Source of the DNA: a virus
Direction: 5' to 3' (one strand)
Virus record (IMG/VR): IMGVR_UViG_3300037070_001066
Coordinates: 1-64,000 of that record
Length of the DNA stretch: 64,000 nucleotides
The notes beneath the pieces were generated by a model. It was given only the letters and a program-made list of their open reading frames with translations. It did no database searches and was not told the origin of the DNA. The position numbers and the translations under genes are program-made. Positions 11,079 to 64,000 of the stretch are shown here, in pieces; position 1 is the stretch's first letter; the number at the start of each line of letters is the position of its first letter.

Positions 11079-12044
11079 TTATCTTACCTAATACTAAGAA
11101 CTTCTCCATAGGATCTAAGTCTCTATAGTCTAGATAATCATTTATATTGTCTTCATTGTATTCTATAGAGAGATCTACCTTATCTGCTAATGCTTGCATA
11201 TCATCCATTATCTTATAGAAAGCTTTAAGATGTGCTTTAACTTTTTTATCATTCTGAAGTTTATCCTTTCTGTATCCTTGCTTTAAAAAACTCATTAGTT
11301 ACATAGTTTTAAGTAATTAAACTCTGTTTCTTTTAACTCCATAAATCTAGACCTAGTCATCAATATTAAGTCAATCTCGAATTCAACGTCTACTTCATTA
11401 TTCTGAGGATAGGAGACCTTATTATCAACTAAATAGTAATATCTACTCATAGTGTCTCTGATCATCTTTTCCTTTAAACCATCTATATGATCTTTATGTA
11501 TTAAACCATTCTTTGACGGTAACGTATCTTTAACCACTTCTCTAATCTCTATCTCTAACTTCTGGTTCATATGTCTTCATTATAAGGTTTGAATCTACTA
11601 CTCTCTTGTCTCTTATTGTAATCTGTTCTCTTATTCTAGTATACTTATCAGCTACATAGATCTGAACTATATCTTCCTTCTCATTAAGTCTAAAGATACC
11701 AACATTAACGTCTAGTCTTCTATCCTTACTTCTATACTTATGTGTATAGTAATGAGACATATTAATCAAATCTTCCTGATGCCTTACTAAATCTTGTCTT
11801 ATGTAAAAATACAATTTCTCTATCATTACCTATAGTATATTTCAATGTTAAAAAATAATAAACCAATAACGAATCTATTCATTCTAATGATCTCTTCTCC
11901 TTCAATAGGATTACCATCATCATCAACTTTAAATCCTTCTAATGCTTGATTATAGAAACCTAGCATGATTTCAGTATTTTGGTCTCCCCATACAAACTCT
12001 AACCAAGTTGGTAATTTCATATCTATGATTTTTAAATTATAATA

Positions 12045-58227: not shown

Positions 58228-61200
58228 CTACTCTAATATCGTGTATAATTGATAATAATCTTTATCTAACTGAGACCATATTGGCACAAGTCTTTTAGTT
58301 GCTTTAACTAATTCATTCTTGTGTTTAGCGTCTTCATCTAAATATGAAAAGAAATTTTCATCATCCTCTGGGAAGAAGTTAATTGGAGTTACAACTTGTT
58401 GTATAAAGTCTAAACCTGTTTGTATTAATTTAATACCTGCAACAGGATTTGTTAAAATCTTAGCTGTCTCTCTAGGATCTCTAAATTGAGATAATTCAGA
58501 CTCTAATCTTCTAAGTTGATATACTAAGAACCATAATTCATCATCATCAGGGGCTGCTGCTCCTGCAATTAATGCTCCAATAGCTGGTAAAATTACAGAT
58601 GTTAACATTATCTCAAGAGTTGCTTTCTTTAAATTAGCCTTCTCGTGGTCTGATAATGAGTTATATACATCTTTCATATACATCAATTGCATAGACTTCA
58701 TTGATGGAACAACTCCATTTACGAAATATCTAGCTAAAGATGTGTAAATACCTTCAGTATATTCTTTCTTAGCAGAACTATAGTTTAATTCATCTTCAGT
58801 TAAGTCTTCTCTACTTTTAAGTGATGTAGATATACCTGTATATCTGTAAGCAAGAGCGCCTAAGAAGAAGTTTTTAAACATCATCACTAGTTTACCTGAG
58901 ATAGTTTTAGACAATTCATTCTTAAAGTTATTATCATAAACACCATACAAGTCAAATACTTTGCTCTTAATCAAAAGATTTATATGAGTTTTACCTCCTT
59001 TAGCATATTCAGTAGTAAGATTGTGTTTGGTAAATTTAACTTTATCGTCCATTACTAACTTACCTTTGTTGTCCATCTTAAGCATATCTAATAATGAAGA
59101 AGCTTTAGATTCATCTACAACTTTACCATTCTTATCTATAAATTTATTGTCAGAATTCATCACTTTAAGAGAGTCTAGTACGGCCATAGTAAGTATAGAG
59201 TTCATCATGTGCTCTCCAACTTCGTTTATACCATTCATATTCTTTCTAGAAGCTAACTTCTTTGCCAATGTATTTCTAAGATATTCTTGTGTAGCAGGAT
59301 CAAATCCTCCAAATACATCATACATTTCTAAAGTTTGATTTACAAAAGATGTTTTAACTGGATTACTTAAGTCAGACAATGTGTTAGGAAGTTCAGTTCC
59401 ATAAAGTTTCTCAGCTTTAAGTAAATTCTTAGGACTAATAACGTCTCCTCCAAATGACTCTATAAACAATTGAGTGAATCCATTGAATAAGTTAGCAGTT
59501 CCTGATGCTACGTTTAGAGACATAGCAATACTTGCAGTAGCTCCATTTACGTAAGATACAATCTTATTTCCATCTAAAGGACCTAATCTTCCTCCATGTT
59601 CATGAAATACATCATATATCATCCTGTCCATTAAACCTTTTATTCTCTTATATTCATTAGTAAATTCACCTGGAATAGTTACAACTGGCTGATTCTTGTT
59701 CCAAATATTCATTAAAGGAAGTCCAGTTTTAGTAGAAGTTTGAAAATACCTTTTACTTTTAGATACATCTGCCAACATAATAGCATTAGTTTCGACCTTA
59801 CTTTTCTCTCTAAAGCTAATAACATTGAAATATTCTTTTCTCAGCATTGTAGCTACGTCTAAAGATTGAGTTTTTGGATCTATATCACCTCTATAATGAA
59901 CTTTAACACCGCGAACAGACTCACCTGTTTTGTTATCTATAGCTTCACCATATCCAACATCATCTGGTTTAATCTCAGTAGCATCTGTCCACTTTTGTTT
60001 AACTAAGCCTTTAAAGTCTTTCTCTACACCTCTTTCGAAATCAGATTTAGTTATAGATGGAAACTTATAGAAACTTACTTGGCCTGTCTTTCTAACAAGA
60101 CTCCTACTTCCGCCTGTAGTTGTGTGACCTAATTTGGCTAAAGAAACTGCTTCTTTAAGCATTTCAGCACTAGCTCCAGTTGGTTTAGTATTTCTATATT
60201 TGTCTTTAGGATACCATTTAAGACCATGTTCATCAGATTGATCTCTAACTGTATGCTCTTTCATCCAGGCTTTAGTCTTCTGATACAATGCTTTGTATTC
60301 ATCATTCTTCATGAAATCTTTAGCCATTACAGCTCCTTCTGCTTTAAGTTTATCCTTCAATTCACTAAGCTCTAATTCCATAGGTTTGTATTCTTCTAAA
60401 TAGATATCTCTAAATTTTACACTATAAATACCTTTAAAGAAGTAATTACCATCTTTGTCTTGCTCATATATATCTTTATATAACTCAGACGGAGCAAGGT
60501 TACCTTTTTCTTTAACTAAATCATTAAAAACATTTTTAAGAGCTAAATCATAATCTTTGTACAAATCTATAATAGTATCTCTTGCTGCACTAATCATATT
60601 AGTGATTATTTGTATAAGTTTACTGTTAGTATTTAAAGGGTCTTCAAAGTTCTTTTTAAATGAACTTATGTCGAATGCTGGATTGTATACAATTTTCTCT
60701 GCAGCTTTAATTAAATCTTCTTCAAATAAATCTTTATCTCTAGTAGTCAACATTCTAGATGCATATTCAATTCTAGATTCACCAGTTATTTTCTTATCTA
60801 CATATTCTTTGTAAAGTCTATTTCTGTGATCTGTCTCTACTTGTGTATTAAACTTTGGATTAGCAAGAAATTTAACAGCTTGTTCGTTTTTTATAGCGTG
60901 AAACTGAGATTTAAGTGATTTACTTTCACCTGCAGCATAAGATATAATCTTTCTTATAGAATTAAAATCTTCAACTTCCTCTTCAGTTAAGTCTTTTTTA
61001 AGGACAGAGGCTCCAACAAGTTTACTTATATCATCAATAAGATCATATGCGGCTAGATACTCTTCATAACTATTTATAGTCTTAAGTAGATCTTCGTCTC
61101 TATAGTCTTTTGTTTTCTTATGAAGTCTTTCTAAACCTTTTGTAACTTGAATAACAGTTTTGTTTAATGTATTAGCATAACCTAAAATAACTTTAACTTT

Positions 61201-62364
61201 TTGAGTCTCAGACATTTTGTCCATCTCTTTAATTAAAGCATCTATATTCTTCAAGTGATCTTTTTTGTCTTTCCTTGATATAGGTTTTTTTGTCTTAGCA
61301 GTTCTAGCTCTAGCTTGAGCAATTCTATCTTTAGTTTCTTTTACAAGCTCATCAAGTTTGTTTTCAAAACTAGTCATCTCTGGTTTAACAAATTCAAGCT
61401 CTTTAGCAAACACACCTTTATATTGAGTCTCTTCATTTTCATCCTGAACATTTTGTTCATTGAAGTCCATTATCGTGTTGAATAAGGTTGTATATTCACT
61501 ATTTAGTGGTATATTGAAAAATCTTCTTATTGCGTTAATGAATTGATTCCACAATCCTTCAGATTCAGATTTAACTTGATCTCTAAATTCAGGATTAGAA
61601 TAAAACTCAGCAACAAATTCAAATTCATTTTTAAATCCATATTCCTCTGCTAAATCACTATCTTTGTATTTCTTCATAAACTTGTCAACAACTTCAACAA
61701 GTTCTTTCTCTGCAAGAGTTCTATTCTTAGGATCTTTAGCTAAAGCATCAGCAGTAATACTATGAACAACTTCATGAAGAAAAGCTACAACAACATCTTT
61801 CTCACTAAGACCTTTAATTCTCTCTGAAGAAACTTGAATTTTCTTAGATACTGGGTCATATTGCATAACTGCAGAAGTAGATATCATGACTTCTTCATCA
61901 ACTAATTCAACTTTTGCTTTCGATCCACCCATAATACGTGCCGCTCTAGTAGCTAAATCTTGCGCGTAAGGCGTTAAATCAGAAATTCCAGTACTTATAT
62001 TAGATAAAATATTATCGACGCTTAAATCGCCTTTAAATAGGTTTTCAGTAAATACTTCAACTTCAGGATCATATGAAATTTCTTCATCAAGAGTATTTGG
62101 AGCATTTTCATCAACTAAATCATGAAAATTTACTTCATCTGACAATCCTATCTCACTAATTGGTTCTGTTAATTTTTGTTCAGGTTTTGCATTTTCTTTA
62201 ACAACTGATGCAGTATGTAGTTCGTCTACTGTAGGAAACTTTTCAAGTCCATTTACTTCTTGCCACAAAGATATCTTAGCAGCAGCAATTAGGGGACTAA
62301 CCCCTAACTCGCTAGCCAAATCAATAACAGCATGACTCTTATGATTAACACAATGTATTGCCAT
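58228..62364 (-). CDS. Large virion cargo/ejection-type protein with zincin metallopeptidase-like motif
   Basis: 1378 aa, helical; FLHEVVH...EFVAE; C-terminal hydrophobic segment (IMLTSVILPAIGALIAGAAA); in the late-strand large-protein region. Confidence 0.65.
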   Translation of the reverse strand: MAIHCVNHKSHAVIDLASELGVSPLIAAAKISLWQEVNGLEKFPTVDELHTASVVKENAKPEQKLTEPISEIGLSDEVNFHDLVDENAPNTLDEEISYDPEVEVFTENLFKGDLSVDNILSNISTGISDLTPYAQDLATRAARIMGGSKAKVELVDEEVMISTSAVMQYDPVSKKIQVSSERIKGLSEKDVVVAFLHEVVHSITADALAKDPKNRTLAEKELVEVVDKFMKKYKDSDLAEEYGFKNEFEFVAEFYSNPEFRDQVKSESEGLWNQFINAIRRFFNIPLNSEYTTLFNTIMDFNEQNVQDENEETQYKGVFAKELEFVKPEMTSFENKLDELVKETKDRIAQARARTAKTKKPISRKDKKDHLKNIDALIKEMDKMSETQKVKVILGYANTLNKTVIQVTKGLERLHKKTKDYRDEDLLKTINSYEEYLAAYDLIDDISKLVGASVLKKDLTEEEVEDFNSIRKIISYAAGESKSLKSQFHAIKNEQAVKFLANPKFNTQVETDHRNRLYKEYVDKKITGESRIEYASRMLTTRDKDLFEEDLIKAAEKIVYNPAFDISSFKKNFEDPLNTNSKLIQIITNMISAARDTIIDLYKDYDLALKNVFNDLVKEKGNLAPSELYKDIYEQDKDGNYFFKGIYSVKFRDIYLEEYKPMELELSELKDKLKAEGAVMAKDFMKNDEYKALYQKTKAWMKEHTVRDQSDEHGLKWYPKDKYRNTKPTGASAEMLKEAVSLAKLGHTTTGGSRSLVRKTGQVSFYKFPSITKSDFERGVEKDFKGLVKQKWTDATEIKPDDVGYGEAIDNKTGESVRGVKVHYRGDIDPKTQSLDVATMLRKEYFNVISFREKSKVETNAIMLADVSKSKRYFQTSTKTGLPLMNIWNKNQPVVTIPGEFTNEYKRIKGLMDRMIYDVFHEHGGRLGPLDGNKIVSYVNGATASIAMSLNVASGTANLFNGFTQLFIESFGGDVISPKNLLKAEKLYGTELPNTLSDLSNPVKTSFVNQTLEMYDVFGGFDPATQEYLRNTLAKKLASRKNMNGINEVGEHMMNSILTMAVLDSLKVMNSDNKFIDKNGKVVDESKASSLLDMLKMDNKGKLVMDDKVKFTKHNLTTEYAKGGKTHINLLIKSKVFDLYGVYDNNFKNELSKTISGKLVMMFKNFFLGALAYRYTGISTSLKSREDLTEDELNYSSAKKEYTEGIYTSLARYFVNGVVPSMKSMQLMYMKDVYNSLSDHEKANLKKATLEIMLTSVILPAIGALIAGAAAPDDDELWFLVYQLRRLESELSQFRDPRETAKILTNPVAGIKLIQTGLDFIQQVVTPINFFPEDDENFFSYLDEDAKHKNELVKATKRLVPIWSQLDKDYYQLYTILE

Positions 62365-62370
62365 ATATTT

Positions 62371-62733
62371 TTATTTTAAAAATTTTAATTTATATAGCGT
62401 ACTATATATTAATTCTAATATGTCATCAATTATTTGTTGTAGATATCCGCAGTCACTTAAAGACTCTCTAAAGGATTTAAAAGACTCAATAAATCCTTCT
62501 AAATAAGAAATTGGACTAATGCTTTCAGAAATAGAAAACGACTTATAGCCTTTTATAATTCCATATTCTCCTTGGTAAGACTCAATGAATCTATCTCTAA
62601 GATCTACAATATCTCTATATAATCCATCTAAAGCTTTATGCTCTGCAAAACTAGATGTTTGCAAGTGAGCAATATGTGCATTTACTTCTATTGCAAATAG
62701 GTTAGACACAAACTCTTGTACTTTATTTTCCAT
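62371..62733 (-). CDS. Ferritin/Dps-like four-helix protein (DUF5856-like)
   Basis: AHIAHLQTSSFAEHKALDGLY...DRFIESYQG...IDDI...YKL. Confidence 0.7.
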   Translation of the reverse strand: MENKVQEFVSNLFAIEVNAHIAHLQTSSFAEHKALDGLYRDIVDLRDRFIESYQGEYGIIKGYKSFSISESISPISYLEGFIESFKSFRESLSDCGYLQQIIDDILELIYSTLYKLKFLK

Positions 62734-64000
62734 AACATTCTATTAATTTTTCTTTTTCATCGTCACTTAACGCCATGAATGACTCCTTAGTCATAGTAGG
62801 ATCTGCTTGTTGGAAAGCCTTAGAATGCTTATTCCATGAATCTTCAATAAACTTATCATAATCTTGTTCAGTAGTCTCTTCTCCAGTTAAATTCAATGCT
62901 CTTGAGGCATTTCCTTCAATAGTCTCAGCTTTGTTACTAATTCCAATTACAGTAGTTTTAGCTCTAGTTAAAGCCGTATAAATACTTCTAGATTTAGATT
63001 TTGCTGATAAAGGACCAACACTATTGATGTCTTGGATATCTACTATAACACTATCATATGTAGAACCTTGAGATTTATGTGAAGTTATAGCATAAGCATA
63101 ATCTATGTTAGCAAAAGACTTTTTAAGTCCCCATGCTTGTGCATACATTTGCTTTCTTAATGCTCCAGGAGGCATTTGTTTAGCCTTAGCGAACATCTCA
63201 GCTACTCTTTCATTAAACTCAACTTTAGATTCATCTGCAAGTACTGGAAATGACATATCAGTATTAGTTCCATCACCACGCTCTACAGTAACTGCATAAG
63301 CTTGAAAACCATTATATGTAGTCTTTCTAACACCTTTTATAGAGAATTCATCACTATTAGATACCTTAGTTCTAGAATCAACATCAAAGTTGTCTTGGAA
63401 CATTATAATATCATTCTCAATTAATTGAGGCACATCTTCTCCGAATACAGCTTTTCTAATATCATTATTGTAAGCAGTTCTTGTAGCGTTTCTATATGTA
63501 ACAACTTTGATTACATTAGGGTTTTGCTCAAGTATACCTCTTTTAAATGAGTCTACTACATCTTCAAATATATGACCAAATGATCTTACAAATACTAAAT
63601 TACCTTTAGGAGATAATGTATCTTTCATAACTCCATCTGGAACAGGATCTTGTTGAGAAGTTTCTAACTCAGAGTTATCCCAATAATAATCTGCAAATGG
63701 AAGTATAGGAGACTCTTCTCCTTGACGAACACGTTCAGTTAGGCTAGCTTTATTCTCAGAATCAAATACAGGACTAATGCTATCTAAATCAGTTTTAGAC
63801 CATCCATGATAATAAGGATTTTTAAGATCTCTAATAGGAGGCAATTGACCTCTATCTCCCAAGAACACTAATTTAGCAGATCTTCTTTTCATCTCCATCA
63901 TCATCTCAATAGCCTCTTCATTAACCATAGAAGCTTCATCTATAATAATAATATCATGTTTAGTAATCTTAGCATCTTCAGAAAATGAATCAGTAAACTC
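62723..64000 (-). CDS. SF1B (Dda/RecD-like) helicase domain protein, 5'-truncated by the window
   Basis: Frame open to 64000 giving IIIIDEASM; GDRGQLPP, RVRQ, YAITSHKSQGSTY, YTALTRA. Confidence 0.85.
   Translation of the reverse strand, partial: EFTDSFSEDAKITKHDIIIIDEASMVNEEAIEMMMEMKRRSAKLVFLGDRGQLPPIRDLKNPYYHGWSKTDLDSISPVFDSENKASLTERVRQGEESPILPFADYYWDNSELETSQQDPVPDGVMKDTLSPKGNLVFVRSFGHIFEDVVDSFKRGILEQNPNVIKVVTYRNATRTAYNNDIRKAVFGEDVPQLIENDIIMFQDNFDVDSRTKVSNSDEFSIKGVRKTTYNGFQAYAVTVERGDGTNTDMSFPVLADESKVEFNERVAEMFAKAKQMPPGALRKQMYAQAWGLKKSFANIDYAYAITSHKSQGSTYDSVIVDIQDINSVGPLSAKSKSRSIYTALTRAKTTVIGISNKAETIEGNASRALNLTGEETTEQDYDKFIEDSWNKHSKAFQQADPTMTKESFMALSDDEKEKLIECYGK

What the first reader, a model, noticed from the sequence alone, without database searches (positions are those of the whole stretch)
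58228..64000. Cargo-type proteins carry single cysteines only at their facing termini: possible head-to-tail disulfide chain for ejection
Seen: the 1378-aa protein has one Cys, at residue 5 (MAIHCVN). The visible ~425 aa of the upstream helicase-domain protein has one Cys, four residues from the C-terminus (LIECYGK). Other proteins in this window use Cys freely. Known: crAss-like virions carry large proteins that are ejected through the tail, probably unfolded. Inference: Cys is purged internally but kept at the ends so that consecutive cargo proteins can be linked C-to-N by a disulfide or shared metal and threaded out as an ordered chain, released in the reducing cytoplasm.
Basis: partly seen in the sequence, partly recalled or inferred. 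Interest (0 to 1): 0.78.

Follow-up and report, generated by a model that had tools for sequence, protein, structure and literature searches.

The report
Terminal cysteines chain crAss ejection proteins
In this crAss-like phage the three giant proteins packed with its virion RNA polymerase have no cysteine except one at each end that faces the next protein. Relatives lose a pair when two genes fuse and gain one when a gene splits, which points to untested end-to-end disulfide links joining the proteins into one thread.

Summary
The 1378-aa protein (homologue of phi14:2 gp65) has one Cys, at residue 5. The "helicase protein" is the C-terminus of a 3046-aa virion RNA polymerase that runs out of the window, with Cys only at residues 3 and 3043. 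The next protein upstream (1812 aa, gp67-like) has one Cys, at 1810.

That is four Cys in 6236 aa (about 59 expected), all within 5 residues of facing termini.

The rule holds in:
- phi14:2, crAss001, cr85_1, three Suoliviridae, p-crAssphage and FpV4;
- 78 of 79 gp65-like proteins and 103 of 120 vRNAP homologues;
- essentially all of 80 IMG/VR loci.

Fusions lose exactly the junction pair. A triple fusion has no terminal Cys. An inserted extra member (L075) and a recent fission (L012) each carry a new pair.

Best reading (about 0.6): head-to-tail disulfides make a gp67-like → vRNAP → gp65-like chain. No bond was observed here.

Two parts are already published: Cys suppression in Schitoviridae ejection proteins, and a Cys1715–Cys5 disulfide seen by cryo-EM in cyanophage A4. 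I found no paper describing the rule for crassviruses.

This scan has noted the same rule before in many other crAss-like genomes.

The parts
58228..62364 (-). gp65-like ejection/'RNAP-associated' protein, 1378 aa. It is the last member of the chain, and its only Cys is residue 5.
   Evidence: tblastn to phi14:2 g065: 25.5% identity over 89% of the query, E 4e-90. 78 of 79 family members have a Cys at residue 3-6, 65 of them as the sole Cys, and none has a C-terminal Cys.
62200..62364 (-). N-terminal 'head' module (about residues 1-55) carrying Cys5 (codon 62350-62352).
   Evidence: C5 is an invariant column in alignment A2, as are the zincin residues H197, E198 and H201. The head stays at the N-terminus when 500-900 aa are inserted behind it. 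The same head type opens the extra 1167-aa member in L075.
61762..61776 (-). HExxH zincin motif (residues 197-201) of the gp65-like protein.
   Evidence: H197, E198 and H201 are invariant in A2. A profile search of PDB sequences hits a lethal-factor-type zincin and phage internal virion/ejection proteins weakly, E 1e-4 to 7e-3. A zincin domain in gp65 is noted in the Drobysheva preprint.
62371..62733 (-). Small 120-aa DUF5856 gene between the two chain members. Its Cys is internal (residue 95) and it is not part of the chain.
   Evidence: Pfam DUF5856 E 1e-21; phrog_858. Similar small genes with internal Cys sit at this position in many related loci.
62723..64000 (-). C-terminal 425 aa (Dda-like SF1 helicase domain plus tail) of the 3046-aa virion RNA polymerase, which continues to genome position 71863 outside the window. 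The tail Cys is residue 3043 (codon 62735-62737).
   Evidence: The open frame is 3047 codons and was translated. Pfam AAA_30 and UvrD_C_2; phrog_325 Dda-like helicase. C3 and C3043 are invariant columns in A1, like the DFDID aspartates. Of 120 homologues, 117 have a C-terminal Cys and 105 an N-terminal Cys.

Best explanation
The three giant proteins of the crAss-type virion RNA polymerase module are kept free of cysteine except for one thiol within a few residues of each terminus that faces the next protein. The three are the gp67-like protein (1812 aa), the vRNAP (3046 aa) and the gp65-like protein (1378 aa).

The most likely mechanism has five steps:
- The C-terminal tail of one protein docks on the N-terminal head of the next. 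The tail is an acidic stretch, then hydrophobic residues, K-x-Cys, and 0-3 further residues. The head is Met, 1-3 residues, Cys, and then a conserved module of about 50 aa.
- The two thiols form an intermolecular disulfide once the virion is outside the reducing cytoplasm.
- This gives a linear gp67-like → vRNAP → gp65-like chain of about 6200 residues, which copies the single polyprotein that some relatives encode.
- Internal Cys are purged so that no wrong or intramolecular disulfide can form in proteins that must pass a narrow tail channel and the envelope largely unfolded.
- The very short overhangs beyond each Cys keep the branch at each joint small enough to thread. In the host cytoplasm the links would be reduced and the polymerase freed.

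What is shown here: the Cys pattern, its conservation, and its gain and loss with gene architecture. What is shown elsewhere: a disulfide of exactly this kind in phage A4 virions. What is inferred: the bond in crAss-like virions, ordered threading, and reductive release.
For: Pattern in this genome: Cys only at 1810/1812, at 3 and 3043 of 3046, and at 5/1378.

Same pattern in distant relatives (the gp65-like protein is about 25% identical to phi14:2 gp65):
- phi14:2: gp67 Cys1797 of 1797; gp66 Cys3 and Cys2179 of 2180; gp65 Cys3.
- crAss001: gp47 Cys2339 of 2341; gp50 Cys5, 1334 and 2404 of 2412; gp49 Cys5. This holds although gp47 lies on the opposite strand, so it is not a gene-junction nucleotide effect.
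- cr85_1, three Suoliviridae, p-crAssphage and FpV4 also follow the rule.

Large sets:
- 78 of 79 gp65-like proteins have the N-terminal Cys and none has a C-terminal one.
- 103 of 120 vRNAPs have both terminal Cys, and 89 of those have no other Cys. The tail Cys is kept whichever C-terminal domain is present: helicase, AlkB, NADAR or none.
- In 80 IMG/VR loci, vRNAPs are 60 of 60 for both ends. gp65-like proteins are 72 of 72 for N only. gp67-like proteins are 56 of 60 for C only.

Natural experiments:
- gp66-gp65 fusions (L041, L048, P0187) keep only the N-terminal Cys, and their upstream gp67 keeps its C-terminal Cys. p-crAssphage gp44 keeps Cys3, has seven internal Cys and has none at its C-terminus.
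- gp67-gp66 fusions keep the C-terminal Cys and have no N-terminal one, and the downstream gp65-like protein keeps its head Cys. These are L075-L084, the three Suoliviridae, FpV4, P0192 and P0195-P0202. In several it is the only Cys; others also have internal Cys.
- The triple fusion P0193 has no terminal Cys.
- On an RNAP-core tree these states need at least 4 and 2 independent changes.
- In L075 an extra 1167-aa protein inserted in the chain has exactly two Cys, at residues 4 and 1166. It also has a gp65-type head.
- L012 is a recent fission. Its nearest relative (84% identical) ends in the tail DNNDTCVPF. In L012 a 6-kb insertion leaves the vRNAP with a new Cys tail, and the old tail sits on a 113-aa ORF that has a new head Cys.

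Overhangs are minimal: 0-3 residues after the tail Cys in about 96% of cases, and Cys at residue 3-5 in most heads.

Precedents:
- In cyanophage A4, gp27 has its sole Cys at 1715 of 1717 and gp26 has its sole Cys at residue 5. Cryo-EM shows them disulfide-bonded, with the gp27 C-terminal helix sitting in a gp26 cleft.
- Disulfides exist in crAss001 virions.
- N4 ejection proteins have zero Cys, and Cys suppression in Schitoviridae ejection proteins is published.
- The three RNAP-associated proteins were estimated at similar copy number in crAss001.
Against: - No bond was observed here. All evidence for crAss-like phages is comparative.
- Some members carry a few internal Cys: crAss001 gp50 Cys1334, p-crAssphage gp44 with 7, and L080.
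- Four of 60 gp67-like proteins have the Cys 12-31 residues from the end, or none at all (one of these looks truncated).
- Gut crassviruses live in an anoxic habitat, where spontaneous oxidation is less obvious.
- Orphan terminal Cys exist with no identified partner: p-crAssphage gp47 Cys856 of 857, FpV4 gp30 Cys5, and a 326-aa protein of this genome with Cys2.
- Tail and head are encoded next to each other, so their co-occurring motif classes may reflect genetic linkage rather than recognition.
- The crAss proteins show no detectable sequence similarity to A4 gp26 or gp27.
Confidence: 0.6

Rival explanations
1. The bond is the same but the purpose differs. The tail-head disulfides are static clamps that stabilise or organise the packed cargo or pre-ejectosome, or that ensure 1:1:1 co-packaging. 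They would open or become irrelevant before ejection, and the proteins would not travel as a thread.
For: In A4 the Cys1715-Cys5 bond is described as stabilising the outer ring of a folded pre-ejectosome. Similar copy numbers of the three proteins were inferred in crAss001. Co-linearity with a polyprotein would equally serve stoichiometry.
Against: The extreme terminal placement with 0-3 residue overhangs and the complete internal purge are what threading needs. A static clamp could sit anywhere on a surface. Cargo density in crAss001 is unresolved, so no ordered stack is seen there.
Confidence: 0.2
2. The terminal thiols do not form disulfides. Instead they share a metal ion (for example Zn or Cu), or they only contribute to a non-covalent tail-head dock.
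For: The head in this window has His near the Cys (H4, H8, H11). There are four Cys in all across the three proteins, the number needed for one tetrahedral site.
Against: Most heads and tails have no His or second Cys nearby. Fusions leave exactly two Cys, not four, and these are the pair at the remaining junction, which argues against a four-Cys node. The A4 structure shows a disulfide for a head beginning MSKHC.
Confidence: 0.07
3. The Cys pair differently. Options are N with N and C with C, homodimers, cyclisation of the vRNAP through its own two ends, or bonds to another virion component such as the portal or capsid.
For: Sequence alone cannot assign partners. The counts (two heads, two tails) also fit N-N plus C-C pairing, or a cyclised vRNAP plus a gp67-gp65 bond.
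Against: A fusion of gp66 with gp65 removes the gp66 tail Cys and the gp65 head Cys together. A fusion of gp67 with gp66 removes the gp67 tail Cys and the gp66 head Cys together. Under the other pairings each fusion would orphan two Cys that are nonetheless retained. An outside partner would not become dispensable on fusion. Inserted members carry one head Cys and one tail Cys. The A4 bond is tail to head.
Confidence: 0.05
4. There is no protein-level function. The pattern is chance, shared ancestry, or a nucleotide signal at gene junctions.
For: Most trios are encoded head to tail with overlapping or abutting stop and start codons.
Against: The Cys is invariant while neighbouring residues vary, in homologues as little as 22-26% identical to the query. 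The position relative to the stop or start codon varies. crAss001 and cr85_1 keep the gp47-type tail Cys although that gene is on the other strand and not adjacent. The outer ends of the chain, which also abut other genes, never carry a Cys.
Confidence: 0.01

Closest known systems
Cyanopodophage A4 (Anabaena phage A-4L) pre-ejectosome proteins gp27 and gp26, PNAS 2025 (PMC12002296)
   Same: The upstream ejection protein has its only Cys three residues from the C-terminus (1715 of 1717). The downstream one has its only Cys at residue 5, in a head beginning MSKHC like several crAss-type heads. Cryo-EM shows the two disulfide-bonded, with the C-terminal helix of gp27 docked in gp26.
   Different: A4 has two proteins and no RNA polymerase. 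There is no detectable sequence similarity to the crAss proteins (best BLAST E above 0.2). The paper describes a stabilising detail of a folded pentameric ring, not a general rule or a threading chain. No fusion or fission logic is described.
phi14:2 gp67/gp66/gp65 and crAss001 gp47/gp50/gp49 (virion RNAP module or cargo of Crassvirales)
   Same: The proteins are homologous and in the same order, with a DFDID two-barrel RNAP and a zincin in the gp65-like protein. Mass spectrometry shows them in virions of those phages. Some relatives encode them as one polyprotein. The terminal-Cys pattern is identical.
   Different: The papers I could read on these phages mention neither the cysteines nor any link between the proteins; the word 'cysteine' occurs zero times in both. 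The vRNAP of this window carries an extra C-terminal Dda-like helicase.
Cys-suppressed ejection proteins of Schitoviridae (N4 gp50/51/52, DEV gp71/72/73)
   Same: These are giant ejected proteins including a vRNAP, with Cys purged to near zero. The published rationale is passage through the periplasm with its disulfide-forming enzymes.
   Different: In those phages the purge is total and the vRNAP is a single chain of about 3500 aa. Here single Cys are retained at precisely the facing termini of separate proteins.

Membership tests
crAss-type virion RNAP module (phi14:2 gp65-gp66-gp67) | The 1378-aa protein is homologous to gp65 and has a zincin HExxH motif. | tested here: met
   tblastn E 4e-90 over 89% of the query. 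H197, E198 and H201 are invariant in A2.
crAss-type virion RNAP module (phi14:2 gp65-gp66-gp67) | The upstream giant protein is a gp66-type RNAP with the DFDxD catalytic motif. | tested here: met
   D1356, D1358 and D1360 are invariant in A1. blastp and tblastn link it to phi14:2 gp66 and crAss001 gp50.
crAss-type virion RNAP module (phi14:2 gp65-gp66-gp67) | The proteins are packaged in the virion. | not testable with these tools
   Mass-spectrometry evidence exists only for phi14:2 (record notes) and crAss001.
A4-type tail-to-head disulfide between ejection proteins | The sole Cys lies within a few residues of the C-terminus of the upstream protein and of the N-terminus of the downstream protein. 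| tested here: met
   for this genome; for A-4L.
A4-type tail-to-head disulfide between ejection proteins | An S-S bond is observed in the virion. | not testable with these tools
   Seen only in A4 by cryo-EM.
A4-type tail-to-head disulfide between ejection proteins | Sequence homology to A4 gp26 and gp27. | tested here: not met
   The best blastp E-values are above 0.2. A PDB profile search with A2 did not list a chain named as A4 gp26; A4 gp26 was not identified among the PDB chains.
Cys-suppressed ejection proteins (Schitoviridae type) | Near-absence of Cys in the ejected proteins. | tested here: met
   Only 28 of 297 Cys in about 391,000 aa of complete, unbroken trio ORFs are internal. The N4 control has zero Cys.
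Cys-suppressed ejection proteins (Schitoviridae type) | Complete absence of Cys, termini included. | tested here: not met
   Terminal Cys are conserved.
Dda-like SF1 helicase (domain at the vRNAP C-terminus) | P-loop AAA_30/AAA_19 domain plus UvrD_C_2 domain. | tested here: met
   Pfam E 2.7e-20 and 1.3e-9; phrog_325 E 1e-57.

The most novel reading that the evidence does not exclude
Crassviruses and FpV4-like phages may use a portable two-part 'clasp': a C-terminal helix-Cys tail and an N-terminal Cys head of about 50 aa. With it, any number of separately encoded proteins (polymerase, helicase, AlkB, peptidase, unknown effectors) could be joined into one covalent, redox-releasable train that is threaded into the host. 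This would be a modular protein-delivery system in which gene fusion and clasp are interchangeable. Tail and head classes may be matched to fix the order.
Probability: 0.35. Interest if true: 0.85.

Novelty: new variant of a known kind. Interest (0 to 1): 0.72.

Why it matters
How crassviruses, the most abundant phages of the human gut, get about 700 kDa of polymerase-module protein through a narrow tail is an open question. Both the crAss001 and the N4 structural papers raise it.

A covalent end-to-end tether would explain several things at once:
- equal stoichiometry of the three proteins;
- ordered delivery;
- why a polyprotein and three separate genes are interchangeable in evolution;
- why the proteins are otherwise cysteine-free.

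The idea is directly testable on two cultured phages, phi14:2 and crAss001, with gels and mass spectrometry. The rule also helps annotation: terminal-only Cys marks chain members, and it separates true splits from intron-interrupted genes. It also suggests a natural, redox-released way to load and deliver proteins with phage particles.

Tried and rejected
- Complex prediction on the gp65-like protein (residues 1-780, alignment A2) with the vRNAP tail (residues 2940-3046, alignment A3) gave score 0.13, below the mark. That is no verdict and is not used either way.
The genomic context of P0187, P0193 and P0195 therefore could not be fetched. Equivalent fusions were found in IMG/VR loci instead.
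- megablast of the region against the phage collection found nothing.
- p-crAssphage under NC_024711 and JQ995537 is not held; BK010471 was used instead.
- The published Nature version of the phi14:2 paper (PMC12127119) is not held, so only the preprint was read.
- Apparent 'split' vRNAPs without new Cys (L018/L019, L028, L040, L078) looked like counter-examples. The break is inside the DFDID motif. In L018, the only gap checked, it matches a group I intron below Rfam's gathering score (33.5 and 25.2 bits, E 2e-6). They are probably single proteins after splicing.
- The maximum-likelihood tree with the mixture model did not finish in time. The FastTree result was used; p-crAssphage and FpV4 sit on long branches there.
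- Pfam found nothing in the L075 extra member, the 659-aa protein or the gp67-like protein.
- A nucleotide-signal explanation and a four-Cys metal node were considered and rejected (see the rival explanations).
Full report
**1. What is in the window**

The minus strand at 58228-62364 encodes a 1378-aa protein whose only cysteine is residue 5. The frame that runs off the window at 62723-64000 has one Cys, four residues from its end. Between them lies a 120-aa DUF5856 gene with an internal Cys. Other ORFs of the window use Cys at 1.19%.

The window is the first 64 kb of a 104,771-bp virus record. In the whole record the 'helicase protein' turns out to be the C-terminus of a 3046-aa open frame with Cys only at residues 3 and 3043. 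The next gene upstream encodes 1812 aa with one Cys, at 1810. Two further cargo-like proteins upstream (659 and 1038 aa) have no Cys; the 1038-aa one weakly matches the crassvirus cargo-1 domain.

So there are four Cys in 6236 aa, against about 59 expected. All lie within 5 residues of termini and face each other in gene order.

**2. Identity of the proteins**

- The 1378-aa protein is a homologue of phi14:2 gp65 ('RNAP-associated', E 4e-90) and of crAss001 gp49. It has an invariant HExxH zincin motif.
- The 3046-aa protein is a gp66-type two-barrel virion RNAP with the DFDID motif. It has a Dda-like SF1 helicase fused to its C-terminus.
- The 1812-aa protein is gp67-like.

In phi14:2 and crAss001 these proteins are found in virions by mass spectrometry. 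In crAss001 they are counted as cargo that must leave through the tail. The phi14:2 preprint notes that some phages encode the three as one polyprotein.

**3. Conservation**

phi14:2 shows the same four positions:
- gp67: Cys1797, the last residue;
- gp66: Cys3 and Cys2179 of 2180;
- gp65: Cys3.

crAss001 shows gp47 Cys2339 of 2341, gp50 Cys5/1334/2404 of 2412, and gp49 Cys5. Here gp47 is encoded on the other strand, so a signal at gene junctions cannot explain the pattern. cr85_1 behaves the same way.

In metagenomic homologues:
- 78 of 79 gp65-like proteins have a Cys at residue 3-6, and 65 have no other. The single exception looks N-terminally truncated.
- Of 120 vRNAP homologues, 105 have the head Cys, 117 the tail Cys, 103 both, and 89 both with nothing else. 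The tail Cys is kept regardless of which domain ends the protein.
- In an alignment of 23 diverse vRNAPs the two Cys are invariant columns alongside the catalytic aspartates.

In 80 IMG/VR loci with flanks:
- all 60 complete stand-alone vRNAPs have both Cys;
- all 72 gp65-like proteins have the head Cys and none has a tail Cys;
- none of 60 gp67-like proteins has a head Cys, and 56 have the tail Cys.

**4. Natural experiments**

*Fusions of gp66 with gp65.*
- L041, L048 and P0187 keep one Cys, at the N-terminus, and the gp67 upstream keeps its tail Cys.
- p-crAssphage gp44 is the same kind of fusion, with Cys3 and no tail Cys. The protein before it has Cys1956 of 1957.

*Fusions of gp67 with gp66.*
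- The cases are L075-L084, the Suoliviridae cr1_1/cr118_1/cr4_1, FpV4, P0192 and P0195-P0202.
- They lack a head Cys and keep the tail Cys, and the gp65-like protein behind them keeps its head Cys.

*Triple fusion.* P0193 has no terminal Cys at all.

*Independence of events.* On a FastTree of the RNAP core these states need at least four and two independent changes. The tree is unrooted and two rows sit on long branches.

*Gains.*
- In L075 an extra 1167-aa protein sits between the fusion and the gp65-like protein. It has exactly two Cys, at residues 4 and 1166, and its first 49 residues resemble the gp65-type head.
- In L012 a 6-kb insertion of ordinary, Cys-containing genes separates the vRNAP from its former tail.
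- L012's nearest relative (84% identical) ends with the tail DNNDTCVPF. In L012 the vRNAP has a new tail with a Cys, and the old tail now ends a 113-aa ORF that begins with a new head Cys.

*Apparent splits.* Apparent splits of the vRNAP inside the DFDID motif carry no new Cys. The one gap checked (L018) matches a group I intron below Rfam's threshold.

Each fusion removes exactly one tail and one head. This fits tail-to-head pairing. It does not fit N-N or C-C pairing, cyclisation of the vRNAP, an outside partner, or a single four-Cys metal site.

**5. Shape of the joints**

Tails of gp67-like proteins and of vRNAPs share one style: acidic residues, then hydrophobic ones, Lys at -2, Cys, and 0-3 further residues in about 96% of cases. 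Heads are Met plus 1-3 residues, then Cys, then basic and hydrophobic residues. Such short overhangs would keep a disulfide joint thin.

Tail and head motif classes co-occur. The two are encoded side by side, however, so genetic linkage could explain this.

**6. What is known**

- N4 gp50, gp51 and gp52 have no Cys at all.
- The DEV paper documents Cys suppression across Schitoviridae ejection operons and cites the periplasmic-passage rationale.
I read that paper. Cryo-EM shows the C-terminal helix of gp27 inserted in gp26, with a disulfide Cys1715-Cys5.
- In the A-4L record, gp27 (1717 aa) and gp26 (1114 aa) each have only that one Cys, and they show no sequence similarity to the crAss proteins.
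- The crAss001 atlas reports disulfides in the tail and the portal vertex but does not mention cysteines of the cargo. The phi14:2 preprint and the N4 paper do not either.
- Full-text searches found no paper that states the rule for crassviruses.
- The scan itself has recorded the rule in many other crAss-like genomes.

**7. Verdict**

The tail-to-head pairing is strongly supported by comparative evidence, and the disulfide chemistry has a structural precedent in A4. Formation of the bond in crAss-like virions, threading as a chain and reductive release remain inference. A co-fold of tail and head gave no verdict.

I put about 0.6 on a disulfide-linked chain that serves delivery, and about 0.2 on the same bond serving only packing or stoichiometry. 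I rate it a new variant of a known kind.

Noticed in passing
window 62723-64000 and genome 62723-71863 (L005:724-9864, minus strand): The virion RNAP of this phage carries a C-terminal Dda-like SF1 helicase after a region of about 400 aa with no family match. Relatives have AlkB (PF13532), NADAR (PF08719), PF25176, PF12694 or nothing at the same place, so the C-terminus is a variable enzyme slot on an ejected polymerase.
   Followed up: partly
window 62371-62733 (-): A DUF5856 gene (phrog_858, named 'starvation-inducible transcriptional regulator') overlaps the vRNAP stop by 11 nt and sits between two chain members. Similar small genes occupy this slot in many relatives.
   Followed up: partly
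L018:11654-12597; also L019, L028, L040, L078: The vRNAP gene is interrupted inside the catalytic DFDID motif by 0.25-0.95 kb. In L018 the gap matches a group I intron (RF00028) at 33.5 and 25.2 bits, below the gathering score of 50.
   Followed up: partly
L091 (p-crAssphage gp47), L092 (FpV4 gp30), genome 96632-97612 and window 11295-11570: Further proteins have a single Cys at one extreme end and no identified partner. They are p-crAssphage gp47 (Cys856 of 857), FpV4 gp30 (Cys5), a 326-aa protein of this genome (Cys2) and a 91-aa ORF (Cys90).
   Followed up: no
L012:16504-22674: A 6.1-kb insertion between the vRNAP and the gp65-like gene carries three ordinary Cys-containing genes (781, 500 and 440 aa) of unknown function, plus the 113-aa adaptor-like ORF.
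   Followed up: partly
L090 (cr4_1): The giant late genes of cr4_1 contain 7-38 in-frame stop codons under table 11, consistent with stop-codon recoding in this Suoliviridae phage.
   Followed up: no
L094 (A-4L gp26) compared with P0011, P0028 and P0036: The head of A4 gp26 begins MSKHC. P0011 begins with the same five residues, and other crAss-type gp65-like heads begin MAKHC or MKKHC (P0028, P0036, P0034). The rest of the proteins show no detectable similarity.
   Followed up: no
L091 (p-crAssphage gp39 and gp37): p-crAssphage is annotated with a thioredoxin and a truncated thioredoxin near the RNAP module. Whether phage thioredoxins bear on reducing the links was not examined.
   Followed up: no
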